The position numbers and the translations under genes were made by a program. The notes under the pieces were generated by a model that saw only the letters and a list, made by a program, of their open reading frames with translations, ran no database searches and was not told the origin of the DNA. Positions 4,301 to 63,250 of a DNA stretch of 64,000 nucleotides are shown in pieces. Positions within the stretch are counted from its first letter, which is position 1. Every line of letters begins with the position of its first letter. The DNA is from Octopus vulgaris (Eukaryota), in the NCBI GenBank assembly GCA_951406725.2, contig OX597815.1, forward strand, positions 119,164,001 through 119,228,000, read 5' to 3'.

Positions 4301-5749
4301 ATACATACATGTTCTTTTATATTGTTAAGCAAGATATATATTTAGTTTCTTATATTTCATATATGGTTCTATGTATATACTCTTATATATATATGTATAT
4401 ATGTATGTATATATATATATATATATATATATATATATACACACATACACACACACACTCACACACACACACACACACACACACATATATATATATATAT
4501 ATATATATATATATATATATATATATATTTGTATATTTTTATACATATGTATATGTTTTTACGTTTTACAAAGCTGTACAGTTGATTGTGTCAGCCCCCA
4601 TACTTACTTCATCTGTGTCAAAACCATTCTTAGTTATAGCATATAACTGAAGAGTCATCAATATTGCCAAATGCCATTGTTGGCATGAAACCATCAGCAA
4701 CATTCTGACTAGTTAAATGTTATAACCTGGAATATCCTGCTAAACAATATGACAGTTTAACCCCCTCAATTTCTCTGTTAGACTATGCTTTTTTTCTGAC
4801 TTATGGACAACTGTTCAATAACTATATCATCATCATCATGTAATATCTGTTTTCCATGCCGGCATGGGTTGGATGGTTTGACAAGAACTGGCAAACTGGA
4901 GAGCTGCACCAGGCTCCAGTTCTTTGTTTTGTCTTGGCTTCTATGATTGGATGCCCTTCTTAATGCTACGTGGCACCAGCACTGGTACTTTTTATGTGGC
5001 ACTGGCATAGGTGTTTTTTCATGGCACAGGTGCTTCTTACATGGCACCAGCATGAGCAGGGTTACCAAGTAACTTGCAAGACAAAGATCTCTTTGTTGAG
5101 AGAGTGAATAGAGCTGAAAGAAGTAGCTGTGTGTCAGGTGGGAGGTTGGAGTATGATAGAGGGACAAAAATAGTTGTCTTACTATATGGAGATATTTAGC
5201 TACCCCAATATATATATATATATTTATTTATTTACAAACGTATAAACACACACACACACACATACACGCGCGCACGCACACACACACGTGCAATCATACA
5301 CACACAAACACACACATGTGCACACACACACACACACATATATACCTTCAATTATATCATATATTTATTTGTTTTATCATTCATTTAAGCAATTATTCTT
5401 TTGAGAATTCACAATTTTTCTTACAAATGGAATCCATTAAGTTTTTACAAATAAATAGCCAAAAAAAAAAAAAAAAGAACATGTGCACAAACAACTCAGA
5501 TTTTTTAAATATCAATAATTCTAACTTTGAGATAAATTGTGAGAATGTATATTTGTATTAAAATAAATGAATAAACAAAGAAACAAAAGTAGATAGACTG
5601 AAATGTCAAACATAATCTTTTCATTAAGTTTCTATATTGTTTTAAATAATTCAAAGTTAACTTTTCATTTAATCTCTCTATCCCCCACTCTCTCTCATAC
5701 ACACACACAACTGCTAATTCCAGCACATTAGTCAACTGACTGTGTATAG

Positions 5750-6029
5750 TAATGGTTCTCAACCATTTTTATTTTACTTATGACCCTTTTTGATTCCTAT
5801 TTTATTCAGGTGGACCCTCATAGCCATTTGATGTTTAAAAAAATTGTTTTATCATCATCAGCATCATTTATATTTTTATAATTAAAAATTATAAGAAATT
5901 GTTCAAAAAAAGAATGCCAAAATATCTTGTCAATCACATAATTATAACCAATTGATTACACGTAAGTTTTAATAACAAGGCCTTATGTGGACCCCCAAGG
6001 ATCATGTAGACCCTGATTAAGAACTACTA
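5750..6029. mobile_element. hAT-like MITE
   Basis: Termini TAATGGTTCTCAAC / GATTAAGAACTACTA; 8-bp TSD GTGTATAG (5742-5749) / GTGTAGAG (6030-6037); same family as 46541-47201 in opposite orientation. Confidence 0.75.
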
Positions 6030-6509
6030 GTGTAGAGGTTTGCTTAGTTATTGTTTAGGCCCCTTGTTAGCTCTGATCTAATTAATAAGTGATAAAGGAA
6101 GACATTGCAGTTGTGAGCATTCTACCACTTTGGACCACATTGACAAATCTGTTCTTTCTTCTTCTAAGACTTCTTACTAGTCATTCATCTACATCTGGTT
6201 TTCTTTGCAACACCTAGGCTATACAATTGTGGTACCCTGTCAGAAGTCTTCTCCACATTAACAAATGCCAGATATAGTAGCTTACTCTTAGCTAAAAACT
6301 TCTCTTGGTGTTATTTTCAGTGTGATTTTGTCCCTTCAGTGAAAGATACCACATTGATCATTTGGAGCTAGTCAGGAACTGTTCCTACATAGAAAACAGC
6401 AAAAAAAAAAAAAAAAGTTTGCTGGTGGGCGCAAGGCTTGCCAACTGGGAATTCATTCAGTATAAGCACACACACGAAGTATAGAGTGTTTTAATAAGAA
6501 TGTTCTTAT

Positions 6510-6880
6510 CTTTTATCGTGTTTCAGTCATTAGACTGTTACCATGCTGGGGCACCACCTTGAAGAATTTTAGTCAAAAAAATCAACCCCATTACTTTTTT
6601 TACTTATTCTATCAGTCTCTTATGCCAAACTACTAAGTTATGGGGATGTAAACACACCAGCACTGGTTGTCAATTGGTGGTGGGATACACACACACACAC
6701 TCATGCGCACGCACACACACACACACACACACACTGGGCTTATTTTCACTTTTCATCTATCAAATCTATGGACAAAGCTTTGGTCAGCTTGGAGCAGAAG
6801 ACACTTGCCCAAGGTGGCATGCAGTAGGACTGAACTTGGAGCCATGTGCTTGGGAGGCAAATTCCTTACTACACAGTCAT
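6510..6880 (-). mobile_element. tRNA-headed CORE-like SINE (family B)
   Basis: Reverse complement of the ...CCACCTTGGGCAAGTGTCTTCT... core and the ...CAGCATGG...TGACTGAAAC 3' part; (CA)n in the middle. Confidence 0.75.
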
Positions 6881-60747: not shown

Positions 60748-60838
60748 GACTATGCATGTTTTGTGACTATATCTTTAACTAGATAATAATAATAAAATCA
60801 ATTCGATTTAAAATTAAAATATAGTCACTCATCAGGTC
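60748..60838 (-). ncRNA. Decayed type I hammerhead ribozyme (G12A)
   Basis: Minus: GAC-CTGATGA-GTGACTATAT..ATATAGTCAC-AAA-ACATGCAT-A-GTC; perfect 10-bp stem II. Confidence 0.65.
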
Positions 60839-61879
60839 TAAAATAAAATAGTAATAATAAGAAGAAGAAGAAGACGAAGAAAAATAAGAAAATAAATGTA
60901 CGTATCTTAACTTATAATAATTAACAAATAAATATAGAAAAATGTGTTTTAACAATAAATAATCAACTAAAATTTAACAATATTACTTAAAATAAAATCA
61001 TAACTTATCTTATCGAAGAATTTCTGTTATAGATATCATCATCATCATTATTTAACTTCCGTTTTCCATCTTGGCATGGGTTGGATGGTTTGACAGGAGC
61101 TAGCCAGCTGAAGAGCTGCCAGCATGGAAAAATAGATGATAACAATGATTATGATCACGATCATGATTATGATGATACCTGTGTTTGAAAGTAGGTGTTT
61201 GTATGTTGAAATTTTGCTTATCATCATGTGAGCAGTGTTGATGTTGACATTATGACCAATTGTTCTACACTTTCAAAGACTTGTGGAATTTAAAATGTTT
61301 TTACTTGAAATTAAGCAATAAGGAAAAGGAAGAGCATCTGGCTGTAAAATCTTACTTCAGCCAACTCCCTATCTAACCCATGCAAGCATGCAAAATGGGT
61401 GTTGAAACTTATTAAAAATGAACTAATTCCTCTATATCATTTGTTCTACATCTGTTTTTCTATGGTAGCACGAGTTCGATGAATATATATTTCACCAATT
61501 ACTTCATATTCTGTCTCTGTCTGTCTGTCTCTCTGTTTCTGTCTGTTTCTGTCTGTCTGTCTGTCTCTCTCTCTCTCTCTCTCTCTCTCTCTCTCTCTCT
61601 CTCTCTCTCCCTCCCTCTCTCTCTCTCTCTCCCCCTCTCTCTCTCTCTCTCTCCTCTCCCTCTCCCTCTCTCTTGATATGTTTCTGTACAGTTTTTGTCT
61701 TGCAATTTCACTCACAAAACCAAGACTACAGTAGAAGAGACTTTGCCCAAAGTGCTGTATCATGAGAAAGAACTTAAGACCATTTAGTAACAAAGCAAAC
61801 TTTGTATTTACTCAGCCATGCATACAGACAGACAAACAGTCACACAAACACATACACACACACTTTATGAAAATGAAAG

Positions 61880-63250
61880 ATAACAAATCTAACTTTACCT
61901 GCAATGCCAAATATCAGCTGCTTGACCCTCACCTGCTTTGAGGGCCAACACCAACATAAAAAAAGAGCCTCTGGTCTCTCTGTATGACACAACACCAATG
62001 AAGTCACCACATGGTTTAAAACCATCGCTAACAGAAGTAGATCAAGGTTTACCTAATTCAGTATAAAGGACTCTTACCTATCTGCATCTTAGTTATATAG
62101 AGGGTTGAATTCCACTTGGGTCTACATCAAAATTAGTGATGAGGATGTAGACATCATTTTGAACACCAAAGAAACCGTATGTTTTGATAAGAGGCTGGAC
62201 TGACCCTGAAAGCTCCCTCAGTGTTGCACTTGAGGCATTCAACTTTACTGATATATATAATCTCATAGGCATTTTTATTTGAGATATGTTTAATTATGAC
62301 ATTCCCCCACAACTAGTTTTTGCCTCTACATGGACAATGCTTTGGCACTGTCAAAAGGGATGGGGCTCAAAGTCATCAACGAAACCAGTCTGTAGGTGGT
62401 TGATTTTCCAAATGTAATGTTAAACTTAGACACTGGTGCCTATGAACACTTTCATAAACTGAATGAGAAACTGGCAATTATTAATACAGGTTCCTGCCAT
62501 CCAGCCTTAGTGTTCAGGAACCTGGTCAAAGAGTTTAGCAAACGAATCTCCAACCAATCTTCAAATAAGGGGAGTTTCAATGTCACAGCCCTATATTACA
62601 ACAAGGTCCTAACTGCAAGTGGTTTTAATAAGGTTTGGTATATGTGTGATTCTAACTCCACCATGTGAAAATGCCACTATAAAGTCATATAGTTCACCCT
62701 CCTCCATTTTCCCTGAACATTAAACCTTGTCCAGGCAGAATTTTCTTTAGTTCAGTCAATAAGCATTTCCCCCAAACACATAGATACAGAAAAATATTTA
62801 ATAGACATATCTTGAGGATCTCTTTTAGCTGTGCTTCTAACATTAAGAAAACATCACTAAGTAGGCCCAAGCCTAAAACAGAGGCAGACTGCTCATATGG
62901 AGATAACACTGCACACCCATTTGACTGCCATTGCAGTATGAGGTAGAGTATGTGGGCATATCAGAATTTCTCTTCAGTATCACAAGCACAAGTTCTTGTT
63001 TAACATTCAAGAGAGGTGAATTGATACATCTCTAGCGAGACATAGAGGATATTGAGAGAAAATTCTATATATTATGACATTAAAGAGAGGATGCTAAAAG
63101 AGTGTAAACCTTATTTTAATAGTAAAAGGAGGTGCATGCTCTGTCAGGCTGAGAAAAGAATGATATCAAAGGACTCTCTCCGTGCATGTACCTACCTTAA
63201 CTGTAAGGTGACGTTTTTACCTCATCCAGTAGAACAAAAATGTGGTTAGT
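61880..63250 (+). mobile_element. Penelope-like retroelement remnant (RT plus GIY-YIG region)
   Basis: NTNEVTTWFKTIANRSRSRFT*FSIKDSYLS; VDFPNVMLNLDTGAYEHFHKLNEKLAIINTGSCHP..KRISNQSSN..YYNKVLTASGF; PPFSLNIK..KHFPQTHRYRKIFNR..ISFSCASNI; CKPYFNSKRRCMLCQAEKRMI; multiple stops and frameshifts. Confidence 0.85.

What the first reader, a model, noticed from the sequence alone, without database searches (positions are those of the whole stretch)
4520..63250. A family of unrelated hammerhead-bearing mini-elements plus a candidate Penelope-like driver
Seen: at least four sequence-unrelated motifs share one architecture of short stem I, CUGANGA-like core, variable stem II, GAAA and a palindromic stem III too tight to fold as a monomer. 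They are at 28267-28342, 22065-22125, 60748-60838 and 9557-9604, with weaker traces at 4647-4700, 9001-9123 and 10454-10497. A Penelope-like RT/GIY-YIG remnant lies at 61880-63250. Known: Penelope-like elements carry minimal type I hammerheads in their pLTRs that cleave as dimers, and non-autonomous retrozymes exist. Inference: this genome hosts diverse, dense retrozyme-like families mobilised by PLEs; whether these particular families have been described is unknown to me.
Basis: partly seen in the sequence, partly recalled or inferred. Interest (0 to 1): 0.7.

Follow-up and report, generated by a model that had tools for sequence, protein, structure and literature searches.

The report
One retrozyme plus truncated Penelope ends
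The hammerhead-ribozyme motifs are real: one belongs to a young protein-less 534-base repeat that Penelope-type enzymes likely paste into TA repeats, two are tail ends of cut-short Penelope retrotransposons (the rest likely too), and the broken Penelope copy nearby is too decayed to be the driver.

Summary
All four main motifs are real type I hammerheads of abundant, unrelated repeat families, but they are not four mini-elements.

28267 is a copy of family A: a non-coding 534-bp tandem unit with 2,324 exact hammerhead hits and 892 TA junctions at one end, a non-LTR retrozyme by sequence criteria. 22065 and 60748 are 3' ends of 5'-truncated Hydra-clade Penelope-like elements (PLEs); longer copies carry RT/endonuclease coding. 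9557 looks the same, but no coding parent was found. 4647 and 9001 are decayed copies of old hammerhead families; 10454 is single-copy and unsupported.

The 61880 remnant is an old Hydra-like PLE with 17 stops. Six other Hydra lineages with 717-1091-aa open frames exist; none shares detectable DNA with A.

A inserts like a PLE: (TA)n targets, two fixed 3' ends, and head-to-head arms that use one end each (13 of 13) and share a haplotype. Whether the template is a circle or an uncleaved multimer is open; cleavage and expression are untested.

This is a known kind. The scan reported the same pattern for other families in this genome; family A had no sequence match in earlier notes.

The parts
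28108..28438 (-). Family A retrozyme copy, 5'-truncated: unit positions 439-534 then 1-235, ending at the first fixed 3' end
   Evidence: 99.6-100% to the reference unit
28267..28342 (-). Type I hammerhead of family A; this copy has a private A6C change, the family core is canonical
28096..28107 (.). Target-site duplication, left copy (12 bp; 16 bp if 4 bases shared with the element end are counted)
28444..28455 (.). Target-site duplication, right copy
21820..22168 (+). Family B: 3' end (UTR, hammerhead 22065-22125, terminus in (TA)n) of a 5'-truncated Hydra-clade PLE, about 79% to intact family P
60651..61029 (-). Family C: 3' end (hammerhead 60748-60838, long stem II) of another 5'-truncated Hydra-clade PLE
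9473..9752 (-). Family D: 5'-truncated end with hammerhead 9557-9604; likely a PLE 3' UTR, coding parent not found
9001..9123 (.). Family E: old head-to-head pair of decayed Hydra-type hammerheads
4634..4812 (+). Family F: decayed copy of an old hammerhead-bearing repeat (motif 4647-4700)
10454..10497 (-). Not supported: single-copy sequence, core incomplete
61898..63216 (+). Old Hydra-like PLE remnant (RT C-terminal half plus GIY-YIG), frameshifted, 17 stops, no hammerhead found downstream

Best explanation
The window holds one copy of a young non-coding 534-bp hammerhead repeat (a retrozyme) that is likely copied in trans by Penelope-like, probably Hydra-clade, reverse transcriptase, two cut-short tail ends of coding Hydra-clade elements, a likely third, and older decayed ends. 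Shown: family A sits in (TA)n as head-to-tail arrays with scattered 5' ends and two fixed 3' ends 130 nt apart; head-to-head arms use one end each and share a haplotype; intact family P shows the same layout. Inferred: the endonuclease nicks both strands of AT-rich DNA, each 3'-OH primes reverse transcription at one of two internal sites of the same RNA, synthesis runs through successive hammerheads, and the two cDNAs are joined at their 5'-truncated ends. The hammerhead is predicted to fold as a dimer through its palindromic stem III. Whether the template is a ligated monomer circle (about 50%) or an uncleaved multimeric transcript is not resolved.
For: Unit, arrays and ends. Of 60 insertions taken in list order from an end-2 search, 35 have an inverted arm; 30 of 33 visible inverted ends lie at unit 231-236. 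In 46 loci not chosen by their ends, all 13 with both ends called have one of each. Arms of one insertion differ by 0.25 per 100 bases (26 pairs) against 3.5 for arms of different insertions (807 pairs). P ends at 2449 or 2517, one per arm in the two arrays seen whole. Frangieh 2024 (PMC11167929) showed two internal RT start sites and extension of both strands for a PLE in vitro. A core: among 227 parsed units in 69 loci, N7 takes three states while the rest is nearly fixed; 1 of 18 other core/stem III columns varies against 53 of 534 overall. Circular fold z = -7.3. Longest ATG frame 54 aa. B and C coding linkage.
Against: No DNA similarity between A and any of six Hydra lineages, so the driver rests on footprint only; other PLE clades were not searched. 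5' ends are not enriched at the cleavage site (1 of 92 at position 73), so there is no genomic trace of cleavage. Some arrays are not uniform: 320C in 4 of 12 full units of L250, 74G in 2 of 4 units of L070. Only 14 of 33 multi-unit arrays carry a shared private substitution, judged against 49 of roughly a thousand arrays. Core conservation (1 of 18 vs 53 of 534) is not significant by itself. D has no coding parent in hand.
Confidence: 0.78

Rival explanations
1. Family A arrays are copied by PLE protein from uncleaved linear multimeric transcripts of homogeneous source arrays; the hammerhead plays no part in insertion and no circle is needed.
For: In vitro, hammerhead mutants of the anole PLE insert normally and unprocessed RNA is the main substrate (PMC11167929). 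Eight of nine Xenopus retrozyme dimers did not cleave (Li 2026). No 5'-end pile-up at the cut site. Non-periodic recurrent variants within arrays. Intact P makes 2.6-kb tandems although its core reads CCGAAGA.
Against: Arrays of 12-13 units with median 0 within-array differences and private shared variants need a single-unit bottleneck; core and fold look constrained.
Confidence: 0.4
2. One reading: all four motifs are independent non-autonomous mini-elements driven by the family of the 61880 remnant.
For: All four carry hammerheads and insert in (TA)n; D has no coding parent found.
Against: B and C run into RT/endonuclease coding in longer copies; no tandem units seen for B, C or D; the remnant is broken and its family old.
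Confidence: 0.05
3. Family A is the terminal repeat of an unfound PLE, or a satellite expanded locally by unequal crossing-over after single-unit insertion (the scenario of Li et al. 2026).
For: Li et al. found 24 of 57 Xenopus retrozyme families homologous to known TEs, nearly all PLEs. My search for a parent was not exhaustive.
Against: In 106 A loci none has Hydra coding joined to the unit; 4 have fragments in the flanks, hundreds of bases away. Both inverted arms are multi-unit with scattered 5' and fixed 3' ends, which fits synthesis at insertion better than later recombination.
Confidence: 0.15
4. The motifs are chance matches in AT-rich repeat DNA.
For: At relaxed stringency the window count (6) is within the shuffle range (maximum 7); 10454 is single-copy.
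Against: Family majorities restore exact cores and stems; 2,324 exact hits against 0 for the reversed control.
Confidence: 0.02

Closest known systems
Metazoan non-LTR retrozymes (Cervera and de la Pena 2020, PMC7229834; Li, Clavereau and Pollet 2026, bioRxiv 10.64898/2026.07.22.740005)
   Same: Family A: tandem non-coding units, one type I hammerhead each, low GC (33%), long TSD when visible, strongly self-paired; PLE mobilisation already proposed.
   Different: 534 nt exceeds the 150-450 bp of the 2020 paper (inside the 51-972 bp of Li); PLE-style minimal hammerhead with a long stem II; no homology to a PLE terminal repeat found; circles and cleavage untested; Li's invertebrates were three insects and one anthozoan.
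Hydra clade of C-terminal EN+ Penelope-like elements, incl. Hydra-1_Obim (Craig et al. 2021, PMC8557442)
   Same: P has RWK, DKT, CxCX5C, CxxC and CxH, is under 3 kb, targets (TA)n and carries a hammerhead; B, C and the remnant match such proteins; L222 carries a hammerhead nearly identical to that listed for Hydra-1_Obim.
   Different: P core reads CCGAAGA (U4C); several lineages here have 840-1090-aa frames and 3' UTRs over 1 kb; the tail is 68 nt (P) or 130 nt (A) rather than 30-40 bp.
Minimal PLE hammerheads (Cervera and de la Pena 2014, PMC4209133)
   Same: Short stem I, longer stem II, palindromic stem III; that paper already reads single motifs and opposite-strand pairs 100-700 bp apart as truncated PLEs.
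   Different: Stem II of A and C is much longer than 7-8 bp.
Poseidon PLE of Anolis, PAc (Frangieh et al. 2024, PMC11167929)
   Same: Two internal RT start sites define the tail; both strands nicked and extended; AT-rich targets.
   Different: There the element is autonomous and the start sites lie in the ORF start; here the two-end footprint is on a protein-less repeat.

Membership tests
Minimal type I hammerhead (families A-D) | CUGANGA and GAAA core with NUH | tested here: met
   Family majorities; window copies at 28267, 60748 and 9557 are individually damaged
Minimal type I hammerhead (families A-D) | Stems I and II, palindromic stem III | tested here: met
   family D mostly has an A-A pair at the base of stem II
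Minimal type I hammerhead (families A-D) | Self-cleavage, as a dimer | not testable with these tools
   Only folding: the intact A motif cofolds as the dimer form; dimer energy alone does not discriminate, the unsupported 10454 control also gains
Non-LTR retrozyme (family A) | Tandem units each with a type I hammerhead | tested here: met
Non-LTR retrozyme (family A) | No protein coding; GC under 50%; TSD longer than 4 bp when present | tested here: met
   longest ATG frame 54 aa, GC 33%; TSD 12-16 bp and 15 bp at two non-microsatellite sites
Non-LTR retrozyme (family A) | Unit of 150-450 bp (2020 definition) or 51-972 bp (2026 survey) | tested here: inconclusive
   534 bp: outside the first range, inside the second
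Non-LTR retrozyme (family A) | Highly self-paired monomer | tested here: met
   circular MFE -150.7 vs -109.3+/-5.7 in 60 shuffles; 16 of 18 shared changes in paired columns keep pairing, on a structure fitted to the same rows
Non-LTR retrozyme (family A) | Expressed as linear and circular RNA | not testable with these tools
   no run on record as RNA; only assembled contigs
Non-LTR retrozyme (family A) | Absence of PBS/PPT | not tested
   no tRNA comparison was run
Non-LTR retrozyme (family A) | Homology to a PLE terminal repeat (Li 2026; seen in 24 of 57 families, so not required) | tested here: not met
   none against six Hydra lineages; other clades not searched
Non-LTR retrozyme (families B, C, D) | Tandem non-coding units | tested here: not met
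   no tandem units in 15 B, 11 C and 25 D insertions; B and C join coding sequence
Hydra-clade PLE (intact family P) | RWK, DKT, CxCX5C linker, C-terminal GIY-YIG without CCHH, CxxC and CxH, under 3 kb, (TA)n target, hammerhead | tested here: met
   protein read by eye against section 11 of PMC8557442; weak Pfam GIY-YIG hit, E 0.014
Hydra-clade PLE (remnant 61898-63216) | Diagnostic N-terminal motifs and hammerhead | tested here: inconclusive
   N-terminus and 3' end missing; best match is P; 66% DNA to the Hydra-1_Obim-like copy; no tree built
Hydra-clade PLE (family D) | Coding sequence upstream of the hammerhead | tested here: inconclusive
   longest copies reach about 700 bp upstream without coding

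The most novel reading that the evidence does not exclude
Each family A insertion is written from a single 534-nt RNA circle by twin priming: a Hydra-clade enzyme that shares no sequence with the RNA starts at two fixed internal sites, one per DNA strand, and rolls round the circle up to 13 times. The family would be a genomic record of retrozyme mobilisation by a PLE and would show that the two start sites are read by structure, not by homology to the PLE's own end.
Probability: 0.4. Interest if true: 0.62.

Novelty: new member of a known kind. Interest (0 to 1): 0.4.

Why it matters
That PLEs move animal retrozymes has been proposed from co-occurrence and homology (PMC7229834; Li 2026). Family A gives a footprint argument instead: about a thousand young insertions that follow the PLE two-start-site rule, in a genome with several intact candidate enzymes. 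It is a ready substrate pair for an in vitro test of trans-mobilisation and of circle versus linear template. The rest of the finding is ordinary PLE debris and shows that solitary hammerheads should not be counted as mini-elements.

Tried and rejected
Rfam: no hammerhead model matched; uninformative for these variants. Pfam on remnant fragments: nothing relevant. Remnant as driver: rejected. P or five other Hydra lineages as sequence parent of A: no match; the best z of 2.7 among 19 regions was not followed up and is taken as chance. A6C as a family variant: rejected, private to the window copy. RT run-off at the cleavage site: 1 of 92 5' ends, plus one junction in L075. Ligation scars: the three-base change at the cut site in L075 duplicates that array's inversion junction and may be template switching or a polishing artefact; not used. 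A cluster of 5' ends at position 28 is partly an alignment break at a subfamily T-run. One search used wrong coordinates and returned a SINE. Expression: no RNA holder listed; contigs of runs guessed to be RNA cover A and P and cross their unit junctions, which cannot tell RNA from DNA or circle from tandem; no silent control was laid. Lunse et al. 2017 was not held, so whether U4C and A6C cores cleave was not checked. Searches for a published cephalopod retrozyme gave only Craig 2021 and a squid genome paper with Rfam hammerhead counts; the library lacks most subscription papers and Repbase/Dfam were not available. Supplements of the Li preprint could not be seen.
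Full report
Setting. The window lies in a 2.8-Gb animal assembly. An octopus is inferred: a PLE here carries a hammerhead nearly identical to that listed for Hydra-1_Obim. Family letters A-F and P are my own labels.

Observation. The four main motifs are at the stated places. In the window alone a strict descriptor finds 2 hits against 0.175 in 200 shuffles (maximum 2); relaxed, 6 against 1.8 (maximum 7); it misses 60748 and 9557 because those copies are decayed. 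Genome searches settle the point: each motif has over a thousand first-look candidates, and family majorities give intact cores in 17 B, 12 C and 24 D motifs and 227 A units. The traces at 4647 and 9001-9123 belong to older families with Hydra-type hammerheads. 10454 matches only itself.

Family A (28267). The unit is 534 bp, 33% GC, longest ATG frame 54 aa. A 26-mer over the 3' half of the hammerhead has 2,324 exact hits and one 3' end joined to TA has 892; reversed controls give 0. Copies are 92-100% identical to the reference unit and form arrays of up to 13 units in one arm. The window copy is a partial unit with a private A6C change and a 12-16-bp target duplication; a second non-microsatellite site has 15 bp. 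Across subfamilies N7 reads A, C or G while the rest of the core is nearly fixed; U4C occurs in 9 units of 2 loci. The circular fold is far below shuffles (z -7.3). Near-identical sequence is held by runs under five organism labels; those laid were X1, X5, X16 and X18.

Insertion footprint. I took 60 insertions in list order from the end-2 search, skipping three already fetched. 35 have an inverted arm; of 33 visible inverted ends, 30 lie at unit 231-236, two in a diverged form of the same motif, one in a rearranged array. That set was chosen by one end, so I also called ends in 46 loci chosen otherwise: 18 gave end 1 only, 14 end 2 only, 1 none, and all 13 with both ends had one of each (the caller misses some ends). 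Arms of one insertion share a haplotype, 0.25 against 3.5 differences per 100 bases. Units within arrays differ by a median of 0 against 12 between arrays; 14 of 33 multi-unit arrays share a private substitution. 5' ends are scattered, 1 of 92 at the cut site. Against a strict one-circle reading, L250 repeats one variant in 4 of 12 units without period and L070 one in 2 of 4.

Families B, C, D. A protein search from the remnant's family revealed an intact young PLE, P: 2,591-bp tandem unit, 717-aa frame, Hydra-clade motifs. B is about 79% identical to P's end, and 3 of 15 B loci continue into RT/endonuclease coding. C continues into a decayed but nearly whole Hydra frame in L129. D has the same truncated, two-ended, TA-targeted layout; its longest copies reach about 700 bp upstream without coding, which fits the long 3' UTRs of other lineages here but is not proof. 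Cervera and de la Pena 2014 already read such single and opposite-strand motifs as truncated PLEs.

The driver. The remnant has 17 stops and relatives at 66-76%; it is not the driver. Five more Hydra lineages have frames of 778-1091 aa. None of the six shares detectable DNA with A, and none of 106 A loci has coding joined to the unit. P shows the same two-end rule (2449 or 2517), so the link is by footprint.

Mechanism. Shown: layout, ends, shared haplotypes, coding linkage of B and C. From the literature: a PLE protein nicks and extends both strands and starts at two internal RNA sites that define the tail; its hammerhead is dispensable for insertion in vitro (PMC11167929); retrozymes accumulate as circles in coral, mussel and axolotl (PMC7229834). 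Inferred: A RNA is bound in trans, primed twice and copied through its hammerheads. A cleaved linear monomer is unlikely as template, since arms pass many cut sites. Circle or uncleaved multimer remains about even.

What I saw of each paper. Craig 2021: passages, section 11, supplement part 2. Li 2026: parts 1-3 of 5, no supplements. Cervera 2020: part 2 of 6 and passages. Cervera 2014, the review PMC6765202 and the squid paper PMC6962438: passages. Frangieh 2024: parts 1-2 of 4. Lunse 2017: nothing.

Novelty. All kinds involved are described. My searches found no paper on this family or on cephalopod retrozymes, within a library that lacks most subscription journals. Earlier notes of this scan report 359-495-bp retrozymes and truncated Hydra ends in this genome with the same footprint; none matched family A by sequence. 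Verdict: new member of a known kind, interest 0.4.

Noticed in passing
L059:4520-4585 (and L058, L060-L062, L077): The hammerhead of intact, very young family P reads CCGAAGA (U4C) in all 19 hits (16 distinct copies, 4 insertions), while its older relative B has the canonical core; P still builds tandem arrays. The same change is in two A arrays and in the lineage of L276.
   Followed up: partly
L265-L284: At least five further Hydra lineages with 778-1091-aa open frames, 33-81% identical to each other, some with 3' UTRs over 1 kb and long stem II hammerheads.
   Followed up: partly
window 9001-9123; L103, L105-L108: Family E copies are short head-to-head palindromes in which both arms begin a few bases upstream of the hammerhead core, with a different spacer in each copy; the palindromic query biases towards such hits.
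   Followed up: partly
window 27956-28123 and 28579-28756: The family A copy landed inside an older element with 82% inverted arms, possibly a MITE.
   Followed up: no
L075:3693-4300: One arm starts next to the predicted cut site, and the junction sequence reappears at the hammerhead of one unit in each arm; template switch or assembly artefact.
   Followed up: partly
window 4498-4616 and 8820-8941: A 120-bp stretch at 76% identity precedes both weak traces; relation to families E and F unknown.
   Followed up: no
L012, L056, L088, L107: Further hammerhead-like motifs of other families in flanking DNA.
   Followed up: no
window 41046-41381 and 41757-42092: 336-nt inverted arms at 85% enclosing a 36-nt tandem array, within a 38.0-41.7-kb region of degenerate 36-39-nt repeats.
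   Followed up: no
L027, L028, L122, L264: Hydra coding fragments lie within about 1.5 kb of 4 of 106 family A insertions, not joined to them; likely shared TA targeting.
   Followed up: partly
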